A model generated the notes under the pieces. The model ran no database searches and was not told where the DNA came from. It was given only the letters and a program-made list of their open reading frames with translations. The translations under genes and the position numbers were made by a program. DNA of 64,000 nucleotides from a virus: the IMG/VR virus record IMGVR_UViG_3300045684_000050, positions 32,001 to 96,000 of that record; one strand, given 5' to 3'. How positions within the stretch are numbered: the stretch's first letter is position 1; the number at the start of each line of letters is the position of its first letter. This document shows positions 20,921 through 56,990 of the stretch, piece by piece.

Positions 20921-20923
20921 TAT

Positions 20924-23581: not shown

Positions 23582-23583
23582 CG

Positions 23584-26591: not shown

Positions 26592-26593
26592 GG

Positions 26594-27184: not shown

Positions 27185-27904
27185 CTATAAAGGATTTACC
27201 GTCTGTGAAGCATCTTTGTCATCTGACTTGACATCAGTAGCTAATGTTATATTCAATAAGCCAGCAAGTAACTGTATACATCTCTGGACAACCGACTCTT
27301 GATACTTAGGATCTAAGAAAAACTCTTGGTCTAAGAACTTACATATTGTCTTTTCATCACAAGTCTCATACTTAACTAAATCTAATGGATTCGTAAATGG
27401 GCCTTCTACACTTAATGTCTTTGGCTTCGCTCCTTCTCCATGCAACACATATAAACTTTTCTTACCGGCACGATCTTTTATACTGTAAATATTGCCAGAT
27501 GAAATAAATGACTTTCTCGATCCAGAAAACATAGATAAGTCTCCCCAATTGATAAAATCAAAATTGGTGCCATCAGGTAAAGTGATTTGCTTCAATTGAT
27601 CTCCTAAAAATTCCGGAAGATGCTTTTCAGACTTCATCCAGGTACATCCTACAGGAGGCAGACATGGACACTCATTTAAATCAACTTCACACATATGAAC
27701 ACAATCAAGAAAATATTGATCGATAGTTTCTCTAATTCCGGCCTTTAATTTAGTCTCTTGTTGATTAAAAATAACAGCATTCTTGACCATCATAAAAAAA
27801 CGATACACTAACATATTTGGAAGTGAAATTGCTCGCTGGGGATGCAAACTCTTATCCTCTAGTGGTAAGCGAATATCATCAATATATGATTGTATAGTCC
27901 TCAT
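27185..27904 (-). CDS. Tail ring/tubular protein (crAss-like)
   Basis: 239 aa, ..VEGPFTNP..., C-terminal D.K.DD; synteny. Confidence 0.55.
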   Translation of the reverse strand: MRTIQSYIDDIRLPLEDKSLHPQRAISLPNMLVYRFFMMVKNAVIFNQQETKLKAGIRETIDQYFLDCVHMCEVDLNECPCLPPVGCTWMKSEKHLPEFLGDQLKQITLPDGTNFDFINWGDLSMFSGSRKSFISSGNIYSIKDRAGKKSLYVLHGEGAKPKTLSVEGPFTNPLDLVKYETCDEKTICKFLDQEFFLDPKYQESVVQRCIQLLAGLLNITLATDVKSDDKDASQTVNPL

Positions 27905-40086: not shown

Positions 40087-41295
40087 TTATTTCAAATATA
40101 TATTACTACCATCTGAGATGAAAGTAATGTTTTCTCCAAGAGTAGCAAAAGTATAAACATTACCCACAGCTATATCGTCAAATATCACACCTGAAGTAGC
40201 AGTAAGTGTTACAGTATTTGCATTTGTTGGTTCTACACCAACAACCTTCATATCAAACACTACAGAGCACCCTGCCATAGTTAACATTATCGTAGGATCA
40301 ACAGTAATATTTATTGGGCCACCTGTATTATTAACGAAAATCATACCATCTGTTACAACAAATGAATCATCTGCAGTAACTGTTCTAAATCTAGTGGTTG
40401 TTCCACAAGTTTTTAAATCAGTAAACTCTGGTATCCAACTTGCACCTCCCCATCTATAATAGACCCTCCCATTATTAAAACTTATAATATAAGTATCGCC
40501 TGTAACTAACCCACTAGTAAGAGGAACTTCAGTGCCTGTATAATTTTCATTCCTTTCCAAAATTGTTGTGACAACATTAGTAACAACAGTACTATCATTT
40601 AATGTCCAACGTTGATCGTTATTCTCTGTATGAGTTACTGATAATTCATAATCAGAACCATTAAGATTTACGTCTACACTATTATCTGGAGAAGAAACAG
40701 TTTTAATCTTTGCTCCTATTGGAATATCAAATGTAGATAGGATAGTTGTTCCAACTACATCAATAATATTGAATCTCAAATCTCCATTTGGTAATACTTC
40801 TACAAAATCTAATCTTGTATTAGTATCATATGTACCTACAAGAGTATCTATATTCCAGGTAGTGTCTCCATTTGCATCAATAACAGCCGTTATATCGATA
40901 GACCCTTGTGGAGAAACAATACTATATGAAGGTAAACATTCTCTTATATCACAACAGGTTATATAGTCCAAAGGAATACATATCTCGTTATTTAATGTAT
41001 TGCTATCACAATCCGCATTAATTAGCTTTATAGTAGCTTCAGATCCATCAGGGCATTCTTCACTTACCAAAAACGTAACAACAAGACATGGAGTCGTATC
41101 AGTATTGGCATAAGTGCCTATGGTCCATATACCACTACTTTTATCAAATGTACCTTTTGTAGGGACTCCATCTGAAATAGTAATACCATCTGGCACTTCA
41201 ATCTCATACTGAACACCAGTAACAGTACCTGTTGTTAACTTGGGGATACAAATTGTTTTCGTAATTGTATCATTAATTTTAGCTATTTTACTCAT
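40087..41295 (-). CDS. Fibre-like protein with N-terminal DUF11-like domain
   Basis: VPDGITIS..VPTKGTFD..SGIWTIGT; C-terminal ..ITFISDGSNIYLK fibre-tip pattern. Confidence 0.55.
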   Translation of the reverse strand: MSKIAKINDTITKTICIPKLTTGTVTGVQYEIEVPDGITISDGVPTKGTFDKSSGIWTIGTYANTDTTPCLVVTFLVSEECPDGSEATIKLINADCDSNTLNNEICIPLDYITCCDIRECLPSYSIVSPQGSIDITAVIDANGDTTWNIDTLVGTYDTNTRLDFVEVLPNGDLRFNIIDVVGTTILSTFDIPIGAKIKTVSSPDNSVDVNLNGSDYELSVTHTENNDQRWTLNDSTVVTNVVTTILERNENYTGTEVPLTSGLVTGDTYIISFNNGRVYYRWGGASWIPEFTDLKTCGTTTRFRTVTADDSFVVTDGMIFVNNTGGPINITVDPTIMLTMAGCSVVFDMKVVGVEPTNANTVTLTATSGVIFDDIAVGNVYTFATLGENITFISDGSNIYLK

Positions 41296-41301
41296 GGTCT
41301 A

Positions 41302-42288
41302 CTAATTTGTATTTCCTTCAAGAGCAGCTATCCTACTCTCATAATTTTTTAATAATGTATTTATACTACTTAATGATTCTGGTATAGTTCCAGTAACAAC
41401 ATCATTACATCCTGAATCCGGAACTGATACTTTATTCAATATGCTTAAATCTTGAATCGCTTTATCTGCAACTGTAGCCGTACTTCCCAGACAATTAGTT
41501 ATTCCCCTTGAAGTTATACTGCCATTATTAATCGTATATCCTTTCAATGTAGCGATATAATTATCAACTAAAGATATTTTGTTAAATAGATGATCAGTAA
41601 TATCCGACAATGACATATTCGACGATATACTCTTTTCAGAGAAATCTTTAACTTCAAATACTTCACTTCCGGAATATGTTGAAGCCGTATTCATATGAAC
41701 ATTAGAGTCTAACACTACATTTCCATTTGGTGTCAGTAAAGTGACTTCTGATTGTACAGTAGCGGGAAACCTATCAAAATCTATATTGATGGTTCCTGAT
41801 TCAGCACTCGTAGACTGAACTAATGTAGTTCCATTCTTTAGTGCTCCATAAGACCTCGATCTTACAGAAAGAATCTGATATCCCTCCGGCAAGCTATTCT
41901 TAAGATTACTCAAATCGTAAGTAAACGCTGTACCTCTATTTGTGGTAACAGATGAATAATCAAAACTTAATCCTGAAAGAGCACTCGCATCTATTCCGGA
42001 AATAGAACCTATGTTTTTCAAAGATCCAGAATACTTTAAATCTGAACTCGATAGATCACAAATTTTAGAAATAATAGAACTCAATGCTGAATGAACGTCA
42101 GTTTCATAATCACAGTTATCACATTCCCCAGTAAAAGCACAATCTAATGCAATCTTCTTTTCAGTAAAGCCAAGGATGTATGCTATAAGTTTAGAAATGA
42201 CTTCTGACAGCATCATACCTTTGGTAATGCCCATTGATTCCACATCCGGGCCGGTATATTTTACTTGACTATCAGGAAATATTTTCAT
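41302..42288 (-). CDS. Structural protein
   Basis: VKYTGP.V..MGI.KG..L..VI.KL repeat-like motif; C-terminal coiled coil. Confidence 0.55.
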   Translation of the reverse strand: MKIFPDSQVKYTGPDVESMGITKGMMLSEVISKLIAYILGFTEKKIALDCAFTGECDNCDYETDVHSALSSIISKICDLSSSDLKYSGSLKNIGSISGIDASALSGLSFDYSSVTTNRGTAFTYDLSNLKNSLPEGYQILSVRSRSYGALKNGTTLVQSTSAESGTINIDFDRFPATVQSEVTLLTPNGNVVLDSNVHMNTASTYSGSEVFEVKDFSEKSISSNMSLSDITDHLFNKISLVDNYIATLKGYTINNGSITSRGITNCLGSTATVADKAIQDLSILNKVSVPDSGCNDVVTGTIPESLSSINTLLKNYESRIAALEGNTN

Positions 42289-42308
42289 CTCTTTTTTAAT
42301 TTATTTTA

Positions 42309-45300
42309 TTAGCAACAAGTACATGCAATGTCATCTACACATCCATAATTTGTTCCGTCACATGATCCCCAGCAATTACCAGGAAAGCTACATGATCCTG
42401 CAGTTGTAGCACAAGTACCAGTACATATTGTAGATACAGGATCAACACAAGTAGCAGCACAATTCGATGTAGCACATGTAGACCCATCACCTAGATAAGT
42501 TTGGAATGGTCCCGGACATGCAGCTGCAGTAATTCCATCTGTACAAGTGTTGCCACTACAACAAGCACCTGTAACTACAGAACATATATTATTACAAGTA
42601 GGATCATTAACGAACAATCCAGATCCATTATCTAAAACACAAGTATTTCCTGAACATGAATAATATTGTACACAGTTTCCAGCACCATCACAAACAAAGT
42701 TTGCTGGACATATATCTGTACATACTCCATTTGAACATTCTTCACAGTCATTAGCACTACAATTCGCATCTACGTCAACACAAGTTCCACTTGAACAATC
42801 TTGACATCCTGTACATGCTGGTTCACAACAATTTCCAGCTTCACAACCTGCAGGTAAAGTTAAACAACCATCAGGACGACCATCATTGTAAGCACAACAA
42901 CAAGCACAAAAATCTCCATTAGAAAGACATGATTTTCTGCAATCGGCAGCTCCATCAGCAGCACATTGAATACAAGAACAACCTCCATCACATGTTGTTG
43001 TAATACGAGCATTTTGACATGCAGATAATGTAGTATAACTTCCACTATTACCTGAAGCTTGAGAACAAGAACCTTGTGAACATTCATATGTTACACAGTT
43101 AAGTAAATCACAAACCATGGTTCCGTCAAGACATGTTTCTACAGCAGCATTACATGCATCTAATGTTGCAAACGTGCCTCCATTACCTGTCACACTACTA
43201 CACGTTCCATTACTACAGTTATAGGTTGTACATGATCCTGAGTTACATTCTGTACTTCCGTCTAGACAAGTAACTACTGATAGATTACAATCCTCTAATG
43301 TTGAAAAAGTTCCTCCAACACCTATAACATTAACACAATTTCCATTGCTACAATTATATGTCGTACATTCAGCAGCCGTACATTCTGTAGTGCCGTCTGG
43401 ACATCCAGTCCTTGATGCTGCACAAATAGTACTTGTTGCGAATGTTCCACTTATTCCTTGAACACCAAAACAACCTCCATTAACACAATTATATGTCGTA
43501 CATCCATTAGCACTACAAGCATCAGTACCATCAGGACAATTGAAGTATGATGCCTCACAAGCATCGAATGTAGCAAAGTTTCCACCATCTCCTGCAACAG
43601 CAATACATGCATTCATGGAACAATTATAAGTCGTACAGTCATTAGCATTACAAACATCAGTACCATCTTGACATGTATAGATGCTTGCATCACATAATTC
43701 TAACGTAGTAAATGCTCCACCTAATCCTGCTACAGAAATACAGTTTCCATTACTACAATTATATGTCGTACATGCGTTTGTATTACATTCATCACTTCCA
43801 TCTGGACAATTAATAATAGCAGCATTACATAATTCTAACGTAGTAAATGCTCCACCTAATCCTGCTACAGAAATACAGTTTCCATTACTACAATTATATG
43901 TCGTACATTCATTAGCACTACATACCTCTGTACCATCTGGACAATTAATAACAGCTGCATTACAATCTCCCATGTTTCCATAAGTTCCTCCGGTTCCATT
44001 AACTGGAACACAAGATCCACTTATACAATTATAAGTAGTACATTCAGCAGCTGTACATTCTAAACCTCCACCAGGACATCCAACCCTTGAATTCTCACAT
44101 TGAGAGAATGTATTAAATGCTCCACCTACTCCTCCTACAGGACTACAAATACCATTACTACAATTATATGTAGTACATTCTCCTGGACTACATTTTGTAG
44201 TTCCATCAGGACAGTTAGTTACTGCTGCATTACAATCTCCTATAGTATCATAAACTCCTCCTAATCCTCCAACAGGACTACAAATACCATTAACACAATT
44301 ATAAGTCGTACATTCTCCTGGACTACATTTTGTAGTTCCATCAGGACAGTTAGTTACTGCTGCATTACAATCTCCTATAGTATCATAAACTCCTCCAACT
44401 CCTCCAACAGCACTACACACTCCATTAACACAATTATAAGTCGTACATTGACTGTCTACACATTTAGTAGATCCATCAGGACATGTAAATAAATTCGCAT
44501 TACATTGATCCAATGTATTAAAAGTTCCACCTACACCACTAATCATCACACAATTACCATTACTGCAATTATAAGTAATACATTGATTTGATGCACATTG
44601 GTTAGATCCATCAGGACAAGGATATAATGAAGCATTACATAATGCTAACGTAGTAAAAGTTCCACCTACACCACTAATCATCACACAATTACCATTACTG
44701 CAATTATAAGTAATACATTGACTGTCTACACATTTATTAGATCCATCAGGACAATTAAATATAGATGCTTGACAAGCGGGTAATGTTCCAAAAGCTCCTC
44801 CTATTCCATTTACAGGCAAACAATTACCATTACTGCAATTATAAGTAATGCACTCGTTTGACGTACATTTCAAAGATCCGTCAGGACACCCTACTCTTGA
44901 ATTAATACATTGAGCAAATGTTCCAAAAGCTCCTCCTATTCCAGGCACTGTTTGGCAATTACCATTATTACAATTATATGTTGTACATTCATTCGACGTA
45001 CATTCTGTAGTTCCATCAGGGCAAGTAAATATTGAAGCATTACATTGAGCCGATGTATTAAAAGTTCCTCCAACACCTATAACACTAACACAATTTCCAT
45101 TGCTACAATTATATGTTGTACAACCATTGGAAGTACATTTAATAGATCCATCAGGACAAGGAAATAAATTCGCGTTACATTGACCTAGTGTAGCATACAT
45201 GCCTTGAGCTCCAGCTCCTTGAATAATACAACTTCCATTTATACAATTATATCCATAATTACAACTACCATCATCTACAGTAGCAGCAGGATTATAATTA

Positions 45301-48300
45301 TAGGCTATTGGATCAGTACATCCAGTTACCTGACAATTACCTCCACACGTAGGATCATTTGGGAATGTTCCTGAAGGATTATTAAGTAGACAACTTGTTC
45401 CATTACATGCATAATACTTAATACAACTACCATCATCTTGGGTAGCAGCTGGATTATAATTTGCAGCAGTAGGATCCGTACATCCTAAAACTAAACAAGA
45501 GTTATTACATGTAGGATCATTCGCGAATGTTCCAGAAGTATTATCAAGCCCACAGTTAACACCACTACACGAATAGAATGTAACACAACTACCATCATCT
45601 TGGGTAGCAGCTGGATTATAATTTGCAGCAGTAGGATCCGTACATCCTAATATTTCACAAGTATTATTACAGGTTGGGTCATTTACGAATGTTCCAGAAG
45701 CATTATTTAATATACAATTAGTTCCACTACATGAATAATATTGTACACAGTTTCCTGCACCATCACAAACAAAGTTTGGAGGACAAATACTTACACACAC
45801 GCCATTTGTACATTCCTCGCAATCATTAGCATCACAATTCGGATTATGATCTATACATATATCTGCTTGGCAATTTTCACAACCATTACATCGTGCATTA
45901 TCATCTTGACATACTCCATTATTACAACTTCCACAATTCTCACATGGACCTCCTTCATTTATATTGTTTATTTGATCAGCACCATTATCACAAATACATT
46001 CTTGACACCCAGCATTAAATGGAGTACTACATACCCATCCATCGCATACATCAACACATCCTGTTTGACATCCTGACAATGTTGCATACATACCTCCATT
46101 TCCTGAAACGGAATCACACGTATACCCTGGGCCTCCTGAACAATTATATGTAGTGCAATCATTTACGTCACAAGCACTGGTTCCATCAGCACAAGTGTTT
46201 AATGCAGCACAACATGTATTTCCATAATCATCAGCATTAGGAACACAACATGAATTTCCATAACTATCAAGTATTGTATTGTCTTCACATGCCCCATCAA
46301 GACAAGTATCGCATCCAGATGTCCCACAAGAACCTCCATTATTTATATTATTAATTTGATCAACACCATTATTACAAACACATTCTTGACAATCTGCATT
46401 AAATGAGGTACTACATACCCATCCGTTACATAAATCACAATTAACACCATCACAAGACAACGAACCATCTAAACAAACAACAGGAGAACAACAATCACTT
46501 CCATAATCATCTGTTTGCAATCCTGGGTCAGTACAGTTCCCATATCCATCACATACACCACAAACCCCACAAGCAGTATTCATTGGTTCATGAGTATAAA
46601 CTGGCACTGAAACACCACTACTTCCATCACAGGTACAACTTATAGTACATGCATCTAAAGCATGTTGTGGTTGCCTAGAAATAATAACATCTGGATTTAT
46701 AGATAGACAAGTATTTGATGTATTAGAATTTATATAAAATATAGTCGGGTTAATCATGTAATCAGGATGAACTTCAAAGTTCAACCCATTAACTTTTCCC
46801 GGAAGAATATCTGTAATATTTAAACTAAAAACAGCTTCATAATTTGCAACTGTTCTTTCTAACTTAAGCTCAATATCATTATAATAAATAGATAATAAAT
46901 CAAGTTTGTTTTTTATGAAATTACCTATTTGAGCTAATGAACCAATAACCCTATTATTATGCAACACTATAAATATTGGTGAAGGAGGAGGATATATGAT
47001 TCCATTAATAACTATATTTTTAAATGATATAGCAATGTTTGTTGTATTTTGACTAAAAATAATTGTATTAGAAGCACATACGACTCCTGCAGGTGGTGGA
47101 TCAATAACTACTGGTTGAAAACAAGGATTATATTGATTGCAAGGGTCACAACTAGCTATATCGCAAGCTAATCCTATGCCATTTTCACAAATTATAGGAT
47201 CACAACATTCATTTCCCAAACGATCTAATTGTAAATCCGGATCAATACATGTTCCCATCCCATTACACTCTCCACAATCCCCACATGGATCGCCAGGTTG
47301 TGCATAAGTATATACTGCAACAGGATCTCCTGAGCTGTCATCACAATCACAAGATAAAACACATTCAGTAGCAACAAATCCTGTACATACATTTACATTA
47401 TTACAGCTTGGACAATCATTTAAATCACATGCTTGTGTTCCATCACCGCAATTAAGTACAGTACAACATGTACTGCCATAATCATCAGGCACTTCTCCAG
47501 GATCATTACAATTACCAGATCCATCACAAGTTCCACAATCCCCACATGTGTCTCCATTTTCTCCATAAATATATACAGCAATAGGATCTCCTGAGCTATG
47601 ATCACAAGTACATCCTATAATACAAGGTGATGGAAGAAAACCAGAACATGGATCTTCATTAAAACAATTAGGACATAATGCAGAATTACATTGAAGTGTT
47701 CCATTATTACAAACATAAATATCACAACATGTATTTCCATAATCATCCATTACTAATTCGCCTGGACAACACTCTTGGCCATAGCCATCATCCACTTCCC
47801 CTGGTACACAATCTCCAGCTTGACAATATCCGCAACTTCCTGTAGAACAAATAAAACCTTCTCTTATATTTGTTATTAATGCTGTAGCAATGCCATTTTG
47901 ATTCTGACAATTACACTCTTGACATTCATTATTATAAATAGCAGTATTACAAGGATTATTTAAGGCACATGGACTCTTGCATTGATTAATGCAATCTGTT
48001 ATAGTATCATAATCTCCTCCCATTCCGGAAACAGCATAACACTGATATAATGGACTACCTGTACATTTATAAGTAGTTTCACAATAATGAACTTTTACGC
48101 TTTCTACGAACTGATAATCACACTCACCTGATTTAACATCAAAAGTCAACGTGAAGTCATCAGTAACTACATCGTCCCATGGAACAACAAGTTCTACATT
48201 TGTATTTTCATTACCATTTACGATGATAGGATTAACGAAACCAGTTATAGTCCCAGACCAAGCTTTTTCTGTAGGGAAATGCACACCATAATATATTTTT

Positions 48301-48734: not shown

Positions 48735-48738
48735 AGTT

Positions 48739-49554
48739 CTATTGTATTATGATCCCTGGGTCTCCTCCTCCGATACCTGGATCTATTTCTATTCCTAAAT
48801 CAGCACAAGTTTTTATACAATCACCCGTACATTTATCACATTCATGGCAACTATCACAACATACGTTTCCACATAAATCTGCAATTTTTAATATTATATC
48901 TATGCATTCCTGTGCAGTGTCTCTTACTATCTTAGCTTGGAAAGATACACTTTCTCCTACAGCTACACAATCTCCAATATTGCCGGTAATAGTTCCTCCT
49001 GTTGCGACAAGATTCGTTACACATGGATTTACATTAATAAACTCAATCGTAGTGTATATCCAATTCGTAATATCAATCGATATAGCTGAGCTACAAGGAA
49101 CCTCTAACATTTGAGGTATTCCATATACGCAATCTCCTGTAAGAGGATCACAAGTTCCTAAACAAGTAAGGCATTGATCAGCCATACATACATTAATACG
49201 GCCAGTTATGCTTCTCATTCCACCAACTTCTTTTATCTTGTACAAGATAGAGTAAGTCTTTCTGTGCTCATAGACTTTTCTTGTCTGAGCTACTACATCG
49301 CCATTAGTTGCAATAGTGACAGAAGAAAACCCTGAATTATCAAAAGAGAATAAGCTAAACTCATAAGTACTTCCATCGCTAGGAAGGTTGATATTAGCTA
49401 TCCCATTTATATTGAAAGACATTGCTTCTCCTGGGGCCGGACCTTGATCACATGCCCACTCTATAGTAGGTGCTACTAGACAGTTAATACAATTCGTTGT
49501 AGGAATTGTTACTGTTGGAGTACCACAATTATTACAATTTGGATAATAATTCAT
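48739..49554 (-). CDS. Cys-rich structural protein with Ig/cadherin-like core
   Basis: 271 aa; CxxC pairs at both ends, beta-rich middle. Confidence 0.6.
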   Translation of the reverse strand: MNYYPNCNNCGTPTVTIPTTNCINCLVAPTIEWACDQGPAPGEAMSFNINGIANINLPSDGSTYEFSLFSFDNSGFSSVTIATNGDVVAQTRKVYEHRKTYSILYKIKEVGGMRSITGRINVCMADQCLTCLGTCDPLTGDCVYGIPQMLEVPCSSAISIDITNWIYTTIEFINVNPCVTNLVATGGTITGNIGDCVAVGESVSFQAKIVRDTAQECIDIILKIADLCGNVCCDSCHECDKCTGDCIKTCADLGIEIDPGIGGGDPGIIIQ

Positions 49555-49573
49555 TTTCTAAATTTTCTTTTTA

Positions 49574-52500
49574 TTAATTACAGCCGCAATCTTCATTTGC
49601 ACCAAAGGTGTTAAATTCACTTGATGATGCAGGTACACTATATCCTGGAACCATAAGATTATTTACCCATCTTTCACCTTGGTAAATAGATGTTAATGGA
49701 GAATTTATATCAACAAACAACTCAGAAGAATTTTCAAAATTATTCAAACAGCAAGTAAATGGACCCCAATTCACAGCACCTCCATAATCAATTCTAATTC
49801 TTACAGTATTCCCATCATCACTTACAACACTCAGCCCTCCATTAGGAATATAATAACTAGCTGACGTTAAACGTAAAACAGCAACTGGGCAAGTAAATTG
49901 AGCGAATGTTGAAGCTAAGTCTCCTTGAGTATAATTAGTAACAGTTATATCATAAACATCTACAGTTCCAGAAGAAGAAACCATCGTTTGCTGAATAGGA
50001 GTAGCATTTACCCACATATTAGCTTCAGCATAACAATTAGCAGCTAAATCACACTCTATATCTTTTTTATGATAAGTCACTATGTCTTGTGACATTGTTC
50101 CACATTCCGTATCTGTAACTGTTACACTAAATATTCCAGACTCCCCATCAGCTAATAACGGTAATGGATCTATAGACGCTCCAGAATATGTAGTAGAAGT
50201 ACCTCCTATATTTACAGACCAACTATAACTATAGTTTCCACTTCCTCCAGATGCACTTGCAACTAATGGAGTATCACAACTATAAGGATATGATGCACCT
50301 AAATCAATATTCGTGCTATTGGCATCTACAGTTAATGAGGGATAAAAAGCACAACAATCATCTGCATCTCCAACTATATAACTATATGTTCCTGTACATC
50401 CATTATCATCCGTGATGGTTCCACTATATGTGCCTTCTACTAATCCAGTAAATATCACATTTGGTCCGGTCTGATTATTAGCAGATAAATCTCCTGTTAT
50501 ATCATAAGGACCACTTCCTCCACTAATTATCATATTCACTACCCCATCTGCAGAATTAAATGAATTACAGGTTTCAGCAGTAGCTGTACCACCAGAAGTA
50601 ATCGTTACTCCTGCACATACATCAGGACATGGCAATATAGTAAATGTATCAGTAGTCGTACAAAGTATTCCTCCACTACCATCATCACATATATGTTCTA
50701 ATGTTATGGTCCTTGTTATAGGTGAAGTAGAACAATTCAAATAGATTGCCCAACTTGGGAATTGAAGAGTTTGTATATAAATAGCTCCTGGCAATGGGTG
50801 TAATGGTCCAGATACCGCAGCATCATAAACCTGAACTCTAGTCCCAATATTACCTTCTAAGTATGCATATAATTTACCTCCACATGCTCCTTCATTAAAT
50901 GGAGCAAAGAACATTTCAGTTAAATTGATAGCTACAACAAAACCAGATACATCTTGAGTAACTTCAGACTGATTACCTCCTCCTTGTGCCAACGTACATT
51001 GACATGCTGATCCTTCATTAAATACAGCAGTATCAGTACACGTAACTGGCCCAACACCATTAGATGTAGCCGTAACCGTATATGTTAACGTCTCACCATT
51101 CATTAGGCAAGCATTAATAGGATTCGTAAACGTTACTAATCCTGTAGTAGGATTATAGTTATGTGCATAATTGGTTCCATTTACATTTACAGTATTTACA
51201 CTAATACCTGAACCTCCTGTCACTGTTATAGAACTAAAAGTATAACAACATTGTCCAGTAATAGTACTTGTTTCAGAATCAAAATCAATATCTGAATCTG
51301 TTATTTGGAAAATAGTACAATTAATCACATTGACAAACACTTGCCTTGTTTCACTACATCCAATTACATTGTCATAAATCGTTACAGTATATGTTGTGTC
51401 GCTTAATGGACTTACTGTTTGTGAATTACCAGTAGCTCCATTTGACCAACTGTAAGTATAGCTTCCGCTTCCACCTGTTACATTAAGTAATGCTAACGTA
51501 AGATTTTGTCCAATTGTATGATCAACTGTTTCTCCTTCAGCAATCGGAACTCCATTTGCTTCCAAAGTATAATTTATATCACATCCACAATTAGTAACAA
51601 TAATAATAGCGGAAGCAGTACAACTACCATCTATATAAAGAGCATTGATTTGAGTTACAGCTCCAGCTCCATACAATGGAACTACAATCTGATTACCATT
51701 TACAACAGTAAGTGGATTGTTATTTTGGTCAGTAGCAGATGTTATGTAATTAAAAGTATATGTCTTCTGAGTAAGATCTTGACTACAATCTTGATTTATA
51801 GCAACAATATTTTGACCTTGAGTCACATTCAACATTATTTGCTGGCCACCCACACCAGTACATGTTCCTGATGCTGATATACTATCTACAGTATAAATAG
51901 TACTTGTATTAGGATTAACACTGATTAGATTCACTCCTGGAACAGTCGTTAATGTATAACTACTACCGTCATCTCCTGATATAACTACAATAGATCCTAC
52001 GGCATTAGTAGAAATCTGCAAATTAGTAGACGACCCTACACATATTGTTGAATCCTCAAGAGAGAAGTCAGTAATCATAGGAGCACTCACCACATCAATA
52101 GTTACAACTTCATTAATATCTATAACACAACTGCCTGAAGTCAATGACACAAAAGTATAAGTTACTGAACTATTAATAGGTCCAAATGTAGCAACACCAT
52201 TGTTTGGTACTGTTGTAGTTAAAATTGTACCTCCATTTATCCTATATCTTAATACGGCTCCTGCTCCTGATGCACTTGTAGTAAATGTTATATTCGTTGT
52301 TTCATTATCACATAATGTCTTATCCTCAGAAAGAGTATATGTTATATTCGGAGTAGATGTAACAGAAACAGTTTTAGTACTTGATTCACATCCTGATGCA
52401 TCTACAGCTTTAATGCTATATGTTCCTGCATCATAATTTGATAAACTAAATGTATTTGTTGTTACAGTTGAAGAATTTCCATCCGGATAAGTAATAGTAT

Positions 52501-55312
52501 AACTTATAGGCGTTACGCCTCCATTTGGAGTAAAGTCAAAACTTAAGTCGCCGCCACAAGAATTTGTATTGTTAGCAACAGTAAAATCAAATGTATCACA
52601 ACAGTTATTATTAGCCTGAATAGTTGTTTTACATCCATCACTATAAAGTACGTCTATTGAATATACAGTTCCTTTTGTCAAGAACATTTTTAATGTAGAT
52701 CCTTGATCAATATAATTTGCAGCTGGGGTAGCACTCAATCCGGTAATAATAAATGAACCTACTTGCTTAGAAAATATAAGACCATATTCTGATCCAGAAG
52801 TAGAACAATCTACTGTAGTCTCTGGAATTCTATCATCAGCATCTTCTAGTGCATATTCTAAAGAACATTCTACAGAAGAACCATAGATTACATCTAATTT
52901 TATAGTTTTAATCGCTGCTCCACCAAGGTTATATTTACCAAACATAGAAGTAGTGGTGCCATCGATAACCATACCCGCTGTTTTGTTATGTACAAATCGC
53001 TGAACGAATGTTCCATTAAGGTATAAATTATACTTAGCTTGAACATCAGAAGGTATATCATAACCCCATTTTGTAATGTCTTGATTTACATCACAGGGAA
53101 CAAATGGATTCTTTAATAATATCTCTGTATTACAATTTTTTGCTTCATAAAATAATTTTTCTGGATGACAAAAACCAACTTTTCCAAGGTCTAAAGCATC
53201 CGTACATCCACAATCAGGACGTACTAAATAATATCTATTACCCCAAAGCTCTCCATTTGGATCGCTTAATGGATATGCTGTTGAACTAGGTATCTCACCA
53301 GGCCCATACAATATATCTTCATAAGTACCATTACCTGGAAGTGTAACATAAACTTTTCTAAACACTTCTGATTCGTCATATGAACCATCTATAGACTTAT
53401 ACCATTTCCATAATGGAGGCCTTGTATCCTCAGATGTCAATTGACCTATTGCTGGCGAATAATCTCCTGCAGCAACTAAATCCATGGCAGTATTATTGCT
53501 AAATGTCCATTTACCTACGGATATATCTCCATTATAACCACATGTATTTGGCATTGCCATAACACCTGTCTTAGTAACGGTAATCTCTATCCTATTAACA
53601 ACCTTAGTTTCAGTTCCAGAACCAATAGCAGGAAGAACAAGAGCATCAAATGTATGAGAGTCTTTGTCAGATAATGATCCCCCTAGTTTTGCTAATTTTT
53701 CTCCTATTGTTCCTACCCAAACCAATCTACCTTGAGAATCAGTCTTATATACATCATAAAATACGGTAGCAACTAATTCAACAAATCCTGAAGTAGGCTT
53801 TTCATTTTCAGCAATATCTGGATGGCCTATATTTCCAAGTTTCGGAAGTGTTGAATAAGTATTTTCGTTAGAACTACCTTTTCGTAATTCAGCATTATAA
53901 ATAAATGTATATGTCCCAGTGTTAGCATTTTTGCTGGCTAAAGATATACCTGAGTTTATTGTTACAACCGGACATGCACAGTTCTCTGTCTTCTGAGTAA
54001 CTTTTATATCACAATTGGTTTTTGTGAATGTCATTTCATCTGTACCTACTGCTGCTCCACATCCGGGGATACCTGCTGCCTGAGAAGTAGTGAAATTAGA
54101 GCAATGGACACATTTACCTTTAAAACATCCATAACCTAGTCCACATTCACATCCTGTAGTACAATCATCCCCATCCGGAACATCGGTACATATACTTCCT
54201 ATACAATCACAACCTAATTTTTGATCACAAGTAGTATCACAGACTGAAGATCCACAAGGTTCACATTTTTTAGTAGTAGCATTACATCCACAACCTTTTC
54301 CGCAATCAGTACCATTATTACATGAACCGGTACAAGTATTTACTTCACATGAGTTTGTAGATTTATTGCAATAGCAACCTTCTCCACAACCTGTAGCACA
54401 ACTACCTGTACAAGACTTACAATAACAAGTATCTGCATTTAACCTTACACAAGCTTTTGTTCCTCCACACGATTCAGGATCATTGCAATCACAAATATCT
54501 TCACACTTTCCATCCACACAAACTTGTCCAGAAGGACATTGGATAGGAGAACATTTACCTGTTATGTGATTGCAACTTTGACAAGGATCTTTACAATCGT
54601 CATCAGAAGTACATTCAGGTGCCGGCAAGCAATCGCCAGTTTCTGGATCTCTTATATATCCAGGCTTACACTTACACTCACCTAGTACGCATTCTTCATT
54701 AGGATCACAATTAGTATCAACTAAACATTCTACACATTCATCTGTCTTTGGATCACATACACCAACTGGACAAACAATAGGAACGATACCTTTAATTGTA
54801 CATATAGTACATGGAGGCCATGAATCAGGATCATTTATATCACAATCAACACACTCTCCATTTTCGTTTTTATGAGGTTTGTCTGGAGGACACTTACACT
54901 TTCCATTAACACATACTTGACCATCTGTACAAGGATGTTCGTCATCACACTCTACACATGTCTCAGTCTTTGGATCACAAAATTCTCCAGGTAAACATTT
55001 ACTTATACATCCTAAAACAGGATCGCATATTTCACAAGGCCCACATGAAGGATTGTCAGGATCACAAGGACAAATTTTTATCCTCTGATCATCACATTCA
55101 TTACAGTCTCCCTTACAGCGTACTACACCATAAAAGCACTTTTCATCACAACCTTCTGGAATCTGAACTTCGATATGACCTGTAGTATAGATACATACGA
55201 TATCAGCACATTTAGGCTGATCCCATATAATTTCTAAATCTGAGGTTTTACAAGCAGAAAGCCCGGCTTGATTGGCCAGGTCTCGAATTTTAAGAGTGTA
55301 TGTTGTACTCAT
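49574..55312 (-). CDS. Giant Cys-rich adhesin-like protein (1912 aa) with EGF-like and SprB/Ig-like repeats
   Basis: N-terminal CxxDxxCxxGxxCxxGxC repeats; GGSGxYxYSW and GTYxxTxTDxxGC repeats. Confidence 0.78.
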   Translation of the reverse strand: MSTTYTLKIRDLANQAGLSACKTSDLEIIWDQPKCADIVCIYTTGHIEVQIPEGCDEKCFYGVVRCKGDCNECDDQRIKICPCDPDNPSCGPCEICDPVLGCISKCLPGEFCDPKTETCVECDDEHPCTDGQVCVNGKCKCPPDKPHKNENGECVDCDINDPDSWPPCTICTIKGIVPIVCPVGVCDPKTDECVECLVDTNCDPNEECVLGECKCKPGYIRDPETGDCLPAPECTSDDDCKDPCQSCNHITGKCSPIQCPSGQVCVDGKCEDICDCNDPESCGGTKACVRLNADTCYCKSCTGSCATGCGEGCYCNKSTNSCEVNTCTGSCNNGTDCGKGCGCNATTKKCEPCGSSVCDTTCDQKLGCDCIGSICTDVPDGDDCTTGCECGLGYGCFKGKCVHCSNFTTSQAAGIPGCGAAVGTDEMTFTKTNCDIKVTQKTENCACPVVTINSGISLASKNANTGTYTFIYNAELRKGSSNENTYSTLPKLGNIGHPDIAENEKPTSGFVELVATVFYDVYKTDSQGRLVWVGTIGEKLAKLGGSLSDKDSHTFDALVLPAIGSGTETKVVNRIEITVTKTGVMAMPNTCGYNGDISVGKWTFSNNTAMDLVAAGDYSPAIGQLTSEDTRPPLWKWYKSIDGSYDESEVFRKVYVTLPGNGTYEDILYGPGEIPSSTAYPLSDPNGELWGNRYYLVRPDCGCTDALDLGKVGFCHPEKLFYEAKNCNTEILLKNPFVPCDVNQDITKWGYDIPSDVQAKYNLYLNGTFVQRFVHNKTAGMVIDGTTTSMFGKYNLGGAAIKTIKLDVIYGSSVECSLEYALEDADDRIPETTVDCSTSGSEYGLIFSKQVGSFIITGLSATPAANYIDQGSTLKMFLTKGTVYSIDVLYSDGCKTTIQANNNCCDTFDFTVANNTNSCGGDLSFDFTPNGGVTPISYTITYPDGNSSTVTTNTFSLSNYDAGTYSIKAVDASGCESSTKTVSVTSTPNITYTLSEDKTLCDNETTNITFTTSASGAGAVLRYRINGGTILTTTVPNNGVATFGPINSSVTYTFVSLTSGSCVIDINEVVTIDVVSAPMITDFSLEDSTICVGSSTNLQISTNAVGSIVVISGDDGSSYTLTTVPGVNLISVNPNTSTIYTVDSISASGTCTGVGGQQIMLNVTQGQNIVAINQDCSQDLTQKTYTFNYITSATDQNNNPLTVVNGNQIVVPLYGAGAVTQINALYIDGSCTASAIIIVTNCGCDINYTLEANGVPIAEGETVDHTIGQNLTLALLNVTGGSGSYTYSWSNGATGNSQTVSPLSDTTYTVTIYDNVIGCSETRQVFVNVINCTIFQITDSDIDFDSETSTITGQCCYTFSSITVTGGSGISVNTVNVNGTNYAHNYNPTTGLVTFTNPINACLMNGETLTYTVTATSNGVGPVTCTDTAVFNEGSACQCTLAQGGGNQSEVTQDVSGFVVAINLTEMFFAPFNEGACGGKLYAYLEGNIGTRVQVYDAAVSGPLHPLPGAIYIQTLQFPSWAIYLNCSTSPITRTITLEHICDDGSGGILCTTTDTFTILPCPDVCAGVTITSGGTATAETCNSFNSADGVVNMIISGGSGPYDITGDLSANNQTGPNVIFTGLVEGTYSGTITDDNGCTGTYSYIVGDADDCCAFYPSLTVDANSTNIDLGASYPYSCDTPLVASASGGSGNYSYSWSVNIGGTSTTYSGASIDPLPLLADGESGIFSVTVTDTECGTMSQDIVTYHKKDIECDLAANCYAEANMWVNATPIQQTMVSSSGTVDVYDITVTNYTQGDLASTFAQFTCPVAVLRLTSASYYIPNGGLSVVSDDGNTVRIRIDYGGAVNWGPFTCCLNNFENSSELFVDINSPLTSIYQGERWVNNLMVPGYSVPASSSEFNTFGANEDCGCN

Positions 55313-55358
55313 TTGTCTTTTTGTTCAATAGAATAAATGAACTCAAAGACACTGCCTA

Positions 55359-56189
55359 TTATAAATAACAGGAATTTACAGACTTCATTATACTGTACAA
55401 TTCCTTACAATTATTAGTCAAAGGTAACTGTTTTTTCTGATATATACACAAAATACAGTTCTGATTTTTCTTATCCAAACCAAATGTTATACCGCAAGAT
55501 AATGACTTCTTTATGATGTCATAAGAAAGTCCGCATTCTACTAACTTTACATATATTTCAAATGAAATAGGAGTGCATTTTTTGTCTAGCTTAACAATTT
55601 CGTATTGATATTTACATTCTTTTATATTAGCTTTTACACTATATTCTACAAAACATTCTGCAATATCCTGAACTACTTCATAAACTACCATACATTCTGT
55701 TTCAGGCTTCATTGCTATCTCATAAATAAATTTACACTCATCTCGCTTTATTGAATCAATATAAACTTCTATCTTATTACATACTTGATAAAGAGCTTTT
55801 TCCCATGTTTCATAAGCGATACATCCAGGATTTTTTAATAACCACTGATCTTGTTTACTTCGGTCCACTTCTTGCTTTGACACTGCATCTTGCTTCCCGA
55901 TAAGTTTAACAATATTTTCTCTTAGCCTAGAAAAATATTCTAAGCAAATACACTTTCCATTATATAATATTTGATTCTTCATATCCACAAGGATACTTTT
56001 GAACCTTCTTAATTTACGAATATTGTCAAAATTTGCTTTTGGATATCCATAACTATAAAATGATGCAAAATCACCACTAACCCCTATTATATACGCATCC
56101 ATATCTGCCAATAAAAAATTGATGTCATCTATTGATGGTATCAAGCATTCATCTGGACAATGATCACATGTTAGCACTTTCCTACGCAC
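55359..56189 (-). CDS. Cys-rich structural protein (tail hub-like position)
   Basis: 276-aa ORF, CDHCPDEC start; synteny. Confidence 0.55.
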   Translation of the reverse strand: MRRKVLTCDHCPDECLIPSIDDINFLLADMDAYIIGVSGDFASFYSYGYPKANFDNIRKLRRFKSILVDMKNQILYNGKCICLEYFSRLRENIVKLIGKQDAVSKQEVDRSKQDQWLLKNPGCIAYETWEKALYQVCNKIEVYIDSIKRDECKFIYEIAMKPETECMVVYEVVQDIAECFVEYSVKANIKECKYQYEIVKLDKKCTPISFEIYVKLVECGLSYDIIKKSLSCGITFGLDKKNQNCILCIYQKKQLPLTNNCKELYSIMKSVNSCYL

Positions 56190-56659
56190 CCTTTTATTGT
56201 TTCCTCTATATTATTATAAATAGATTGGGCCTCATCTTTCATTTGATACCCGGCGACAGTTTCTAATACCTCAAATTTATCTTGAAGGCAAAGAAATAAA
56301 TCAGGATCATCAATATTCCTAAGAAGTAAATTATCTATGTCACATTTTAAGTTGCCAAAATACCCAACATGTGTTGTTATATTTACTCCACAGCTTTCTG
56401 TATTAACACAATAAATACCATCAAGTAATGGACATATATTTAATTGACTTGCATCAAATACTAATGATGATCCTACAGGAATAGAAATAGAAAAAGTCTC
56501 CTTTGCAGGAGACTCGACGTTTAAATCAACATATAAAACTAAACCGTCTAATTTTTGATTAATACCCCATTGAATATCAGACAGATCTGTTATCTTGAAT
56601 ACCGTATCGGTAATCTTCTCTATCTTAATATTTAATTTCTTTATACAAAAACATGACAT
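56171..56659 (-). CDS. Structural protein (tail hub-like position)
   Basis: 162-aa ORF; L.DGIY.V pattern; Cys at both ends. Confidence 0.55.
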   Translation of the reverse strand: MSCFCIKKLNIKIEKITDTVFKITDLSDIQWGINQKLDGLVLYVDLNVESPAKETFSISIPVGSSLVFDASQLNICPLLDGIYCVNTESCGVNITTHVGYFGNLKCDIDNLLLRNIDDPDLFLCLQDKFEVLETVAGYQMKDEAQSIYNNIEETIKGCVGKC

Positions 56660-56662
56660 CAG

Positions 56663-56935
56663 TTAGGCATTTCGCAATTTATAAGCAGCAATAGCTTCTT
56701 CTTTTGTGCCGAATACTAAAGCTCCATTATCATTCCAGATATAATCTTTTCCATTTCCAGAAACATCTTGTAACTTCATAGTACCTGTACAGCAATCATA
56801 TCCAAAACAACCGCAATCCCAAAGATATGCGAACACATCATTCACAGAAGTAATCCAAGAGCCATCAGCTCTCTGAATTATTCCAGTCTTAATGCTAACA
56901 TCATTGGCCAACTTAAAATTTTTATTACTTGCCAT
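56663..56935 (-). CDS. Small Cys-containing hypothetical protein
   Basis: 90 aa with a CGCFGYDCC cluster. Confidence 0.65.
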   Translation of the reverse strand: MASNKNFKLANDVSIKTGIIQRADGSWITSVNDVFAYLWDCGCFGYDCCTGTMKLQDVSGNGKDYIWNDNGALVFGTKEEAIAAYKLRNA

Positions 56936-56952
56936 TTTTAATTATAATTTGA

Positions 56953-56980
56953 AGTGAGGTAGCTTTTAGACTACCTCACT
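56953..56980. terminator. Perfect 10-bp stem hairpin after the auxiliary capsid-like gene
   Basis: AGTGAGGTAG-CTTTTAGA-CTACCTCACT; weak U-tracts on both sides. Confidence 0.6.
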
Positions 56981-56990
56981 ATATTTTTAA

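What the first reader, a model, noticed from the sequence alone, without database searches (positions are those of the whole stretch)
40087..56935. ~17 kb block of cysteine-rich giant structural genes: a candidate disulfide- or metal-stapled virion appendage system
Seen: eight consecutive genes between the capsid and fibre modules, including 2141-aa and 1912-aa proteins in whose repeats about one residue in seven is Cys (CC, CxC and CxxC patterns). None has a signal peptide and no thiol oxidase or thioredoxin is visible in the window. Known: bacterial cytoplasm is reducing, phage fibres are usually Cys-poor, and such repeat density is typical of secreted or eukaryotic extracellular proteins. 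Inference: long fibres that either bind many metal ions during assembly or are oxidatively locked after lysis. This is the best candidate here for an undescribed system.
Basis: partly seen in the sequence, partly recalled or inferred. Interest (0 to 1): 0.85.

Follow-up and report, generated by a model that had tools for sequence, protein, structure and literature searches.

The report
Cysteine-packed outer proteins of crAss-like phage
An uncultured crAss-like phage, like at least nine relatives, packs conserved cysteines into its outer capsid protein and giant fibre-like proteins, most likely as disulfide bonds made without any export signal or phage-encoded oxidase: an extreme form of a known trick.

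Summary
Seven adjacent minus-strand genes (42309-58568) make up 15.6% of the phage's protein residues but hold 63% of its cysteines (8.95% against 0.96%).

The run extends one gene further, to 58568.

That extra gene folds like the crAss001 auxiliary capsid protein gp36 (Z 12.7), so the cysteine load starts on the capsid surface.

The 1912-aa protein belongs to an unnamed family with at least 139 clusters at E<1e-30. In a 61-sequence alignment, 41 of 42 invariant columns are Cys. Three Cys pairs are lost only together and are replaced by salt-bridge or hydrophobic pairs, which is the signature of disulfide partners.

The 2141-aa protein has 19 repeat units of exactly six Cys. It shares modules with T9SS-secreted Bacteroidota proteins.

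No signal peptides were found. The complete 116.8-kb genome has no Erv, Trx, DsbA, Grx, VKOR or DsbB.

Nine related contigs keep the same layout. No deposited phage has these genes.

Disulfide-stapled virions are already known from crAss001 and Pam3, so this is a new variant of a known kind, not a new system. This scan noted the same pattern on three other genomes. Whether the giants sit on the head or the tail is unresolved.

The parts
56991..58568 (-). X525: Cys-rich (23 Cys, 4.4%) structural homologue of the crAss001 auxiliary capsid protein gp36 (AUX), enlarged by about 190 residues.
   Evidence: AF2 model has pLDDT 72 and pTM 0.69. Foldseek best hit is 7qof_a, E 1.8e-7, prob 1.00. VIA Z 12.7, rmsd 4.5 A, 299 of 333 residues aligned, next row Z 9.6. 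C158, C161 and C294 are invariant in 9 relatives. No sequence-level similarity to gp36.
56663..56935 (-). 90-aa protein with a four-Cys cluster (CGC...CC). Relatives have a 73-97-aa counterpart at the same position.
56171..56659 (-). Y162: conserved small Cys-rich protein (9 Cys, 5.6%).
   Evidence: Homologues at the same position in L002, L004, L007 and L009. C3, C90 and C162 are invariant. No Pfam, PHROG or NCBIfam match.
55359..56189 (-). Z276: conserved protein with about ten tandem 13-14-residue repeats, each starting with one Cys (18 Cys, 6.5%). The N-terminal CxxCxxxC is conserved, which supports the GTG start.
   Evidence: No PDB sequence match. No similarity to crAss001 THA gp38.
49574..55312 (-). 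B: 1912-aa giant protein (125 Cys). It is the founding member here of a large unnamed family.
   Evidence: 399 cluster representatives at E<1e-3 and 139 at E<1e-30. 41 of 42 invariant columns are Cys. Homologues lie on contigs of about 99-136 kb.
55148..55312 (-). B residues 1-55: small N-terminal domain, a candidate virion-attachment end.
   Evidence: AF2 secondary structure. Family members are collinear from residue 1. The attachment role is inferred.
54053..55147 (-). B residues 56-420: stalk of short beta-hairpin Cys modules, about 19% Cys. Two modules match PROSITE EGF_2.
   Evidence: pLDDT 80-92. EGF_2 matches at residues 213 and 388. Paired Cys co-loss at C59/C81, C168/C186 and C259/C270. 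No Pfam match.
52613..54052 (-). B residues 421-900: array of beta-sandwich (FN3, Ig or CBM-like) domains, Cys-poor.
   Evidence: AF2. VIA Z below 8, generic beta-sandwich matches only.
49574..52612 (-). B residues 901-1912: Ig-like repeats of the SprB/GhpA type, shared with Bacteroidota T9SS adhesins, plus a variable C-terminal end.
   Evidence: Family profile against Aureispira grappling-hook protein GhpA (9flp), E 8e-122 in 14 or more stretches. BLAST matches to PF13573/PF18962 proteins. The window protein's own Pfam SprB score is only 17.5 bits, below the cut-off.
48739..49554 (-). V271: conserved Cys-rich protein (22 Cys, 8.1%) with an N-terminal CxxC-x11-CxxC motif and a Cys-dense C-terminus.
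   Evidence: No significant PDB match.
42309..48734 (-). A: 2141-aa protein (277 Cys, 12.9%). It is a variable member: absent from L002 and L004, with a homologue (P0028, 12.6% Cys) in L009.
45261..45740 (-). A residues 999-1158: three repeats spaced 54 aa apart, each with 6 Cys and ending in a GCTDP...NYNP...DDGSC motif. They are 40-49% identical to modules in T9SS-CTD (PF18962) proteins of Flavobacteriales and others.
43005..45164 (-). A residues 1191-1910: 16 tandem 45-aa repeats with fixed spacing C-x6-C-x4-C-x4-C-x4-C-x15-C, 6 Cys each. One more solitary copy lies at residue 846. The DNA repeats are 135 bp and 70-90% alike.
   Evidence: No Pfam match.
41302..42288 (-). Its homologue follows the B homologue directly in L006.
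40087..41295 (-).
   Evidence: Pfam PF01345, 34.3 bits against a cut-off of 24.6. CLIPPER genes occupy the same region in L002, L010, L011 and L013.
60224..61792 (-). Context: major capsid protein, 1 Cys (0.2%).
   Evidence: BLAST E 1e-124 to 3e-28 to relatives' genes that carry Pfam Crass_capsid.
25575..27904 (-). Context: tail ring proteins R1 (25575-26591, 2.4% Cys) and R2 (27185-27904, 3.3% Cys).
   Evidence: Pfam CrAss_Ring_1 at 47.4 bits, above the cut-off. CrAss_Ring_2 at 25.1 bits, just below the cut-off of 27. Cys%.
8051..25491 (-). Context: three proteins at the cargo/muzzle position (4289, 885 and 635 aa) with no cysteine at all.
   Evidence: Amidase_2 domain in the 885-aa protein.

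Best explanation
The Cys-rich genes encode the outward-facing layer of a crAss-like virion.

Shown:
- The first gene has the fold of the crassvirus auxiliary capsid protein, which coats the outside of the shell.
- The giant proteins have the build of fibrillar adhesins: a small N-terminal domain, a stalk of tiny hairpin modules, beta-sandwich and Ig-like arrays, and a variable end.
- Their modules are shared with proteins that Bacteroidota secrete through the type IX secretion system.
- The cysteines are the most conserved residues, and some are lost only in pairs.
- The shell protein and the proteins at the cargo position are almost free of cysteine.
- The proteins have no signal peptide, and the complete genome has no recognisable thiol oxidoreductase.

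Inferred:
- Most of these cysteines form disulfide bonds. Bonds within modules stiffen the stalks and make them protease-resistant. Some bonds between subunits staple the small partner proteins and the fibres to each other and to the auxiliary-protein lattice.
- Because the proteins are made in the cytoplasm, the bonds form without a dedicated phage enzyme. Either they form late in infection, or, more likely, by air oxidation after lysis in oxic water.
- Proteins that must unfold and pass through the tail avoid cysteine, so that they cannot be cross-linked.

Open: whether the two giants project from the head or from the tail.
For: Cys load:
- 8.95% in the run against 0.96% elsewhere; 63% of all Cys in 15.6% of residues.

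Conservation:
- 41 of 42 invariant columns in the 61-sequence B alignment are Cys.
- 84 of 112 aligned Cys are invariant among 9 sequences, against 2.2% of other columns.

Paired loss:
- C59/C81 are lost together in 9 of 9 sequences, C168/C186 in 7 of 8, and C259/C270 in 5 of 5.
- They are replaced by K-D, K-E, R-Y or L-I pairs.
- The sequences that lost them are as diverged from each other as the family at large.

Repeats and folds:
- Every one of 17 45-aa units and 3 units spaced 54 aa apart has exactly 6 Cys.
- The modules occur in proteins with the T9SS sorting domain, which are extracellular.
- The Ig part matches the secreted GhpA fibre, E 8e-122.
- AF2 gives pLDDT 80-92 for the stalk.
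- X525 matches gp36 AUX at Z 12.7.

Synteny:
- The same gene order and the same Cys-rich/Cys-poor pattern are seen in nine related contigs.

No export or oxidase:
- No signal peptides.
- No oxidoreductase genes.

Precedents:
- Disulfides stabilise the crAss001 tail hub, rings and gp57 (PMC10172136).
- Pam3 fibres are attached by disulfides and are released by DTT (PMC9942802).
- In crAss001 the hub protein THA is 5.1% Cys and the cargo proteins are 0-0.2%.
Against: - No virion data exist for this phage or any relative, so presence in the particle and the oxidation state are both inferred.
- I could not read model coordinates, so predicted S-S distances are unchecked.
- The total Cys count in the B stalk is even in only 39 of 61 sequences. 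Some cysteines are therefore unpaired within the chain or serve another role.
- Several CxxC...CxxC motifs look like Cys4 metal sites: X525 C158/C161 with C226/C229, and V271 C7/C10 with C22/C25.
- EGF-like modules normally need an oxidising compartment to fold. How they assemble onto particles in a reducing cytoplasm is unexplained.
- The oxygen status of the source samples is unknown.
Confidence: 0.6

Rival explanations
1. Metal stapling: most of the cysteines coordinate Zn or Fe ions, which would let the modules fold in the reducing cytoplasm.
For: - CxxC-x(n)-CxxC motifs that are invariant or nearly so: V271 C7, C10, C22, C25; X525 C158, C161, C226, C229.
- The X525 CxxC loops have low pLDDT, as unliganded sites can.
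- Metal sites would solve the cytoplasmic folding problem.
- Metal ions in phage fibres are known from T4. This is from my own knowledge and was not checked here.
Against: - Cysteines are lost in pairs, not in fours, and are replaced by salt-bridge or hydrophobic pairs.
- Repeat units have 6 Cys, not 4 or 8, with spacings unlike zinc knuckles.
- His is scarce: 9 in A and 14 in B.
- Homologous modules sit in T9SS-secreted proteins.
- Two modules fit the EGF_2 pattern.
Confidence: 0.12
2. Location variant A: the small partners and the giants B and A are head fibres or a capsid coat that dock on the Cys-rich auxiliary protein. The Cys-poor tailspike-like paralogues downstream are the real tail fibres.
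For: - The Cys-rich genes follow AUX directly in all relatives, including L002, where R1 and the muzzle gene lie upstream of the capsid genes.
- In crAss001 the MCP-AUX hexon pocket holds the head fibres, and the authors expect uncharacterised analogues in other groups.
- AUX here gained about 190 residues and 22 more Cys than gp36.
- The B profile also touches Hoc and decoration proteins, though only through Ig folds.
- Three Cys-poor paralogues with a shared N-terminus look like the tailspike set.
Against: - 60-120 copies of a 1900-2100-aa protein would be very costly.
- The crAss001 head fibres are only 97 and 122 aa.
- In L006 the B homologue lies three genes from R2, R1 and the muzzle gene.
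- There is no direct evidence.
Confidence: 0.4
3. Location variant B: B and A are tail fibres, and Y and Z are hub or adaptor proteins. This would be an enlarged version of the disulfide-linked crAss001 tail-hub collar.
For: - Y and Z sit where crAss001 has THA and THB, between AUX and R2.
- THA is 5.1% Cys.
- R1 and R2 here have raised Cys, 2.4% and 3.3%.
- About 36 copies would suit giant proteins.
- Earlier follow-ups on other genomes read it this way.
Against: - Z shows no similarity to THA.
- No PDB sequence hits for Z or V; Y was not searched.
- This reading does not explain the Cys-rich AUX, which is a capsid protein.
Confidence: 0.4
4. Not virion parts: the giants are adhesin-like accessory genes captured from the host and act outside the particle.
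For: Modules are shared with host-type T9SS adhesins.
Against: - No signal peptide or T9SS C-terminal domain.
- B is fixed in position inside the structural module in nine relatives, with a conserved N-terminal 1100-1400 residues.
Confidence: 0.05

Closest known systems
Bacteroides phage crAss001 virion (Bayfield et al. 2023, PMC10172136; PDB 7QOF-7QOL)
   Same: - Same gene backbone: scaffold-like gene, MCP, two genes, AUX, then R2, R1 and cargo.
- The AUX fold is shared (Z 12.7).
- Disulfides stabilise exposed virion parts.
- The hub protein THA is 5.1% Cys and the cargo proteins are Cys-free.
   Different: - crAss001 AUX has 1 Cys and its fibres about 1% Cys. Here AUX has 23 Cys and the giants 6.5-12.9%.
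- The five small and giant partners (90 aa, Y, Z, B, V) have no detectable counterpart in crAss001 or in any deposited phage.
- The fibre genes lie between AUX and R2, not between portal and MCP.
Cyanophage Pam3 baseplate and fibres (PMC9942802)
   Same: Fibres are covalently attached by disulfides from cysteine-rich regions. DTT releases the fibres, and redox-dependent assembly has been proposed.
   Different: Pam3 is a myophage with a handful of interface cysteines. It has no Cys-rich repeat modules, and there is no homology.
T9SS-secreted fibrillar adhesins of Bacteroidota (SprB-repeat proteins; Aureispira grappling hook GhpA, PDB 9FLP)
   Same: The Ig-like repeats (E 8e-122 for the family profile) and the six-Cys repeat modules (40-49% identity) are shared. 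The overall stalk-and-array build is also shared.
   Different: The bacterial proteins have Sec signals and a T9SS C-terminal domain and are oxidised outside the cytoplasm. The phage proteins have neither.
Eukaryotic-type EGF-like modules
   Same: Short two-strand hairpins rich in Cys, and the CxC...G-aromatic signature in two modules.
   Different: No Pfam EGF match. Connectivity is unknown, and most modules do not fit the pattern.
Cytoplasmic disulfide pathways of large DNA viruses (Erv/ALR-type sulfhydryl oxidases; from my own knowledge)
   Same: Disulfide-rich virion proteins made in a reducing cytoplasm.
   Different: No Erv/ALR, thioredoxin-fold or other oxidase gene was found in the complete genome.

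Membership tests
crAss-like phage (Crassvirales-type structural module) | Multiple paralogous tail ring proteins | tested here: met
   Pfam CrAss_Ring_1 at 47.4 bits (cut-off 27) for 25575-26591. CrAss_Ring_2 at 25.1 bits, just under the cut-off, for 27185-27904.
crAss-like phage (Crassvirales-type structural module) | crAss-type major capsid protein | tested here: inconclusive
   No direct Pfam or BLAST match to gp32. The protein is clearly homologous (E 1e-28 to 1e-124) to relatives' genes that carry Pfam Crass_capsid.
crAss-like phage (Crassvirales-type structural module) | Auxiliary capsid protein with PH plus FD domains, said to be unique to most crassviruses | tested here: met
   X525 model against 7qof_a: Z 12.7, 299 of 333 residues aligned. 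Foldseek E 1.8e-7.
crAss001 gp36 AUX family (for X525) | Detectable sequence homology | tested here: not met
   hhalign probability 0.15. No PDB hit with the profile. The link is by fold and gene position only.
crAss001 tail hub proteins THA/THB (for Y162 and Z276) | Sequence or profile similarity to gp38 or gp39 | tested here: not met
   Z profile against gp38: hhalign probability 0.3. No PDB hit. Folds were not predicted, so the question stays open at the structural level.
EGF-like domain | Six Cys with the CxC-x2-[GP]-aromatic signature | tested here: inconclusive
   PROSITE EGF_2 matches at B residues 213 and 388 only. No Pfam EGF family at E<=1.
EGF-like domain | 1-3, 2-4, 5-6 disulfide connectivity | not testable with these tools
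Three co-lost pairs are known, but not the full map.
SprB-repeat / GhpA-type Ig array | Profile match to the repeat | tested here: met
   B-family profile against GhpA 9flp, E 8e-122. BLAST to PF13573 proteins. The window protein alone scores 17.5 bits on Pfam SprB, below the cut-off of 28.
T9SS cargo | Sec signal peptide and C-terminal sorting domain (PF18962) | tested here: not met
   Neither is present in A or B.
CLIPPER/DUF11 isopeptide domain (402-aa protein) | Pfam PF01345 above the gathering score | tested here: met
   34.3 bits against 24.6.
CLIPPER/DUF11 isopeptide domain (402-aa protein) | Lys, Asn/Asp and catalytic acid triad | not tested
   Candidate residues were seen by eye only. 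The family is heterogeneous in this respect (10.1101/2025.04.25.650565).
Virus-encoded cytoplasmic disulfide-formation system | Erv/ALR oxidase or a thioredoxin-fold partner in the genome | tested here: not met
   No match at E<=1 for PF04777, PF00085, PF01323, PF00462, PF07884, PF02600 or PF13462 in a genome rated 100% complete.

The most novel reading that the evidence does not exclude
Redox-gated maturation. The hairpin stalks cannot fold in the reducing cytoplasm, so particles are released with floppy, inactive appendages. They acquire rigid fibres, a cross-linked outer capsid coat and full infectivity only after uncatalysed oxidation in oxic water. External oxygen would then act as the final assembly factor for a whole clade of environmental crAss-like phages.
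Probability: 0.25. Interest if true: 0.75.

Novelty: new variant of a known kind. Interest (0 to 1): 0.55.

Why it matters
Most crAss-like phages are known only as sequences. This work gives a structural role to one conserved unknown gene (AUX). It also defines a large unnamed protein family (at least 139 clusters at E<1e-30) that marks an environmental branch of these phages.

The scale is unusual: hundreds of conserved cysteines per protein, made without export or a dedicated oxidase. This poses a clear, testable question about how disulfide-rich extracellular-type modules are folded by a cytoplasmic assembly line, and whether oxygen limits where such phages can infect.

The reuse of host T9SS adhesin modules also points to marine or aquatic Bacteroidota as hosts and to adhesin-like receptor binding.

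The six-Cys 45-aa repeat and the repeat spaced 54 aa apart are absent from Pfam and may deserve family definitions.

Tried and rejected
Searches that found nothing useful:
- Pfam, PHROGs and NCBIfam on all block proteins and on excised modules. The only hit was DUF11 on the 402-aa protein.
- tblastn of B, X525 and the MCP against 50,697 deposited phages: no match.
- Pattern scans of IMG/VR with B, X525 and the 776-aa gene upstream of the portal-position gene (read as the large terminase by position only): nothing.
- One scan of representative genomes with A residues 990-1440: nothing.
- ESM Atlas for the B N-terminus and for Z276: no usable hit.
- Word-index search with the X525 alignment: returned only the query.
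- Full-text search for the DDGSC motif: irrelevant hits.
- Search for 'crAss-like' plus 'cysteine-rich': one irrelevant paper.

Structure and profile comparisons:
- Whole-model Foldseek and VIA on the 900-residue B model gave only generic beta-sandwich arrays, TM below 0.2 and Z below 8. The stalk fold is therefore not assigned.
- PDB profile searches with X525, Z276 and V271: nothing significant.
- hhalign of Z against THA and of X525 against gp36: negative.
- BLASTP of the MCP and the 239-aa protein against crAss001 gp32 and gp34: negative.

Tests that were inconclusive:
- Cys-count parity in the B stalk: 39 of 61 even. This is too weak, and the boundaries are imprecise.
- A CLIPPER-like N-terminus in A: not supported (E 0.1; no Pfam hit).

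Rejected ideas:
- An alternative genetic code: all ORFs are intact under table 11.
- Chance composition: base composition predicts 3.6% Cys.
- A phage-encoded oxidase: none found.

Full report
**What the window is**

The window is bases 32001-96000 of a 116,794-bp virus record with direct terminal repeats, rated 100% complete. From 8 kb to 64 kb every credible gene is on the minus strand.

Two Pfam hits identify crAss-type tail ring proteins. CrAss_Ring_1 scores 47.4 bits at 25575-26591. CrAss_Ring_2 scores 25.1 bits, just under the cut-off, at 27185-27904.

The 522-aa gene at 60224-61792 is homologous (E 1e-28 to 1e-124) to genes on related contigs that carry Pfam Crass_capsid.

The gene order parallels crAss001 gp31-gp36, then gp40, gp43 and the cargo genes. 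In this window it runs:
- a scaffold-like 398-aa gene
- the MCP
- 307-aa and 239-aa genes
- the 525-aa gene
- the appendage genes
- R2 and R1
- 635-, 885- and 4289-aa proteins at the muzzle and cargo positions

At sequence level the phage is very far from anything deposited. B, X525 and the MCP find nothing in 50,697 GenBank phage records.

**Checking the observation**

The eight ORFs at 40087-56935 are as described.

| Protein | Cys | Cys % |
|---|---|---|
| A (2141 aa) | 277 | 12.9 |
| B (1912 aa) | 125 | 6.5 |
| V271 | 22 | 8.1 |
| Z276 | 18 | 6.5 |
| Y162 | 9 | 5.6 |
| 90 aa | 4 | 4.4 |

(Counts.)

The 328-aa and 402-aa genes at the low-coordinate end have only about 2% Cys.

The seven Cys-rich ORFs are 15.6% of the proteome's residues and hold 63% of its cysteines: 8.95% against 0.96%. 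Base composition would predict 3.6%.

By contrast, the three large proteins at 8051-25491 (4289, 885 and 635 aa) have no cysteine at all, and the MCP has one.

No N-terminus looks like a signal peptide.

The whole genome has no match at E<=1 to Erv/ALR, thioredoxin, DsbA, glutaredoxin, VKOR, DsbB or Thioredoxin_4, while the control genomes do.

**Anatomy of A**

A has 16 tandem 45-aa units plus one solitary unit. All share the spacing C-x6-C-x4-C-x4-C-x4-C-x15-C. It also has three units spaced 54 aa apart. Every unit has exactly six Cys.

At DNA level these are 135-bp and 162-bp tandem repeats, 70-90% alike, which points to recent expansion.

Residues about 1000-1440 are 30-49% identical to modules in some fifty proteins. 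Most of those carry the T9SS C-terminal sorting domain, and several are named as Flavobacteriales.

None of A's modules is in Pfam.

A has no counterpart in relatives L002 and L004. A homologue with 12.6% Cys sits in L009. A is therefore a variable member of the module.

**Anatomy of B**

An exhaustive HMMER search with residues 1-1190 found 399 cluster representatives at E<1e-3 and 139 at E<1e-30. Most are 1400-2300 aa and collinear from residue 1. Their median Cys is 18.8% in the first 420 residues. Members sit on contigs of about 99-136 kb. None has a name.

In a 61-sequence alignment, 41 of the 42 invariant columns are Cys.

AF2 on residues 1-900 gave mean pLDDT 88. The model shows:
- a small N-terminal domain
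- a stalk of short two-strand hairpins (residues 56-420)
- an array of beta-sandwich domains

Two stalk modules fit PROSITE EGF_2. No Pfam EGF family matches, so 'EGF-like' is a resemblance only.

The family profile matches the Ig-like array of the secreted Aureispira grappling-hook fibre GhpA at E 8e-122. It matches Hoc, decoration and tail proteins weakly, through the Ig fold.

**Disulfide or metal**

The best sequence evidence comes from rare losses of Cys in the B stalk.
- C59 and C81 are replaced together in 9 of 9 cases.
- C168 and C186 are replaced together in 7 of 8.
- C259 and C270 are replaced together in 5 of 5.

The replacements are K-D, K-E, R-Y, E-R or L-I pairs. The sequences concerned are as diverged from each other as the family at large.

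Loss in twos, with salt-bridge or hydrophobic compensation, is what disulfide partners do. It is not what four-ligand metal sites do.

Three further points agree with disulfides: six Cys per repeat unit, scarce His, and homology to T9SS-secreted proteins.

Against a clean picture:
- The total Cys count in the stalk is even in only 39 of 61 sequences.
- V271 (C7, C10, C22, C25) and X525 (C158, C161, C226, C229) carry zinc-knuckle-like motifs.

I could not inspect model coordinates.

**The first gene of the run**

With nine relatives as alignment, X525 folded at pLDDT 72 and pTM 0.69.

Its best Foldseek hit is chain a of 7QOF, the 333-residue crAss001 auxiliary capsid protein gp36 (E 1.8e-7, prob 1.00). 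Next comes a 266-267-residue chain of the unique portal vertex (7QOH/7QOI), which may be gp57 but was not identified.

VIA gives Z 12.7 with 299 of 333 residues aligned across both domains. This stands clear of the next rows, which match only the FliD-like domain. That agrees with the paper's own description of gp36.

There is no sequence-level similarity.

gp36 has 1 Cys. X525 has 23, and three of them are invariant in nine relatives. So the cysteine load begins on the outer capsid layer.

**Relatives**

Nine contigs (L002, L004, L006, L007, L009-L013) keep the following order:
- MCP
- a gene of about 310 aa
- a gene of about 235 aa
- X
- a small gene of 73-97 aa
- Y
- Z
- B
- V

In each, the capsid genes have 0-0.9% Cys and the genes from X to V have 2.5-9.6%.

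Downstream genes vary. They include CLIPPER-domain proteins in several relatives.

In L006, three genes after B, come Ring_2, Ring_1 and the muzzle gene. In L002, Ring_1 and the muzzle gene lie upstream of the capsid genes, yet the Cys-rich set stays next to AUX.

**Head or tail**

In crAss001 the pocket formed by MCP and AUX holds the head fibres. The authors expect uncharacterised analogues in other groups.

Arguments for a capsid-surface location:
- The linkage to AUX in every relative.
- Three Cys-poor paralogues with a shared N-terminus further downstream (38674-40080, 31730-33148, 30147-31676). These look like the tailspike set.

Arguments for a tail location:
- Y and Z sit where crAss001 has the tail-hub proteins THA and THB.
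- THA is 5.1% Cys, and R1 and R2 here have raised Cys.
- Giant proteins suit a low copy number.
- However, Z shows no similarity to THA.

I leave this open, at roughly even odds.

**Comparison with what is known**

Disulfides between tail-hub proteins, rings and the gp57 dimer are documented in crAss001.

In cyanophage Pam3 the fibres are attached by disulfides and fall off with DTT.

Cys-free cargo proteins are also seen in crAss001.

What is new here:
- The scale, and the building blocks: hundreds of conserved Cys in extracellular-type modules.
- The extension of the Cys load to the auxiliary capsid protein.
- A conserved set of five partner genes with no described homologue.

This scan reached similar readings on three other genomes (e1-5354824, e1-5842759, e1-3408792). 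Those are unchecked notes, not independent evidence.

**Verdict**

Disulfide locking is favoured over metal binding. This is not a separate new system but an extreme, clade-wide variant of disulfide stabilisation of exposed crassvirus virion parts.

The interesting open point is how such proteins fold and assemble without export or an oxidase.

Noticed in passing
window 8051-25491 (-): Three consecutive large proteins (4289, 885 and 635 aa) at the crAss cargo/muzzle position contain no cysteine at all. The 885-aa protein carries an Amidase_2 peptidoglycan hydrolase domain (E 4e-18).
   Followed up: partly
window 55359-56189 (-), residues 123-274: Z276 has about ten tandem 13-14-residue repeats, each beginning with a single Cys followed by an alternating hydrophobic pattern. 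The repeats are conserved in six relatives. It may be a cysteine ladder in a beta-solenoid or fibre shaft. The fold was not predicted.
   Followed up: partly
window 40087-41295 (-); also L002, L009, L010, L011, L013: CLIPPER/DUF11 domains, a family shown to carry intramolecular isopeptide bonds, recur in the appendage genes of these phages. The 2025 survey of this family found no isopeptide bond in viral proteins of BFVD. The catalytic triad was not checked here.
   Followed up: partly
window 38674-40080, 31730-33148, 30147-31676 (-): Three Cys-poor paralogues (468, 472 and 509 aa) share their N-termini. The 468- and 472-aa proteins align end to end at 29% identity (E 1e-47). The 468-aa N-terminus weakly resembles pectate lyase PelN (E 1e-4). 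They are likely a tailspike set with a common anchor.
   Followed up: partly
window 38085-38672 (-): A 195-aa protein with a strongly hydrophobic segment near residue 13 (12-residue Kyte-Doolittle mean 2.87) sits in the middle of the fibre genes. It may be a membrane protein.
   Followed up: no
window 43005-45740: The 135-bp and 162-bp DNA tandem repeats inside gene A are up to 90% identical. This suggests recent duplication and possible length variation of the protein between strains.
   Followed up: partly
L010:17242-18018 and L008:1755-2549: Two related phage contigs carry a sulfotransferase gene (PF00685/PF13469) among their appendage genes. L008 also has a peptidase M43 gene and a YadA_head protein.
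   Followed up: no
L013:4013-4243; L011:17719-19038 and 24140-24673: Homing-endonuclease-type genes (GIY-YIG, NUMOD-like, HNH) are inserted in or near the structural modules of relatives. crAss001 likewise has endonucleases gp37 and gp41.
   Followed up: no
window 28848-29387 (-): A 179-aa protein has a weak NlpC/P60 match (E 8e-4, below the cut-off), upstream of the ring-protein genes.
   Followed up: no
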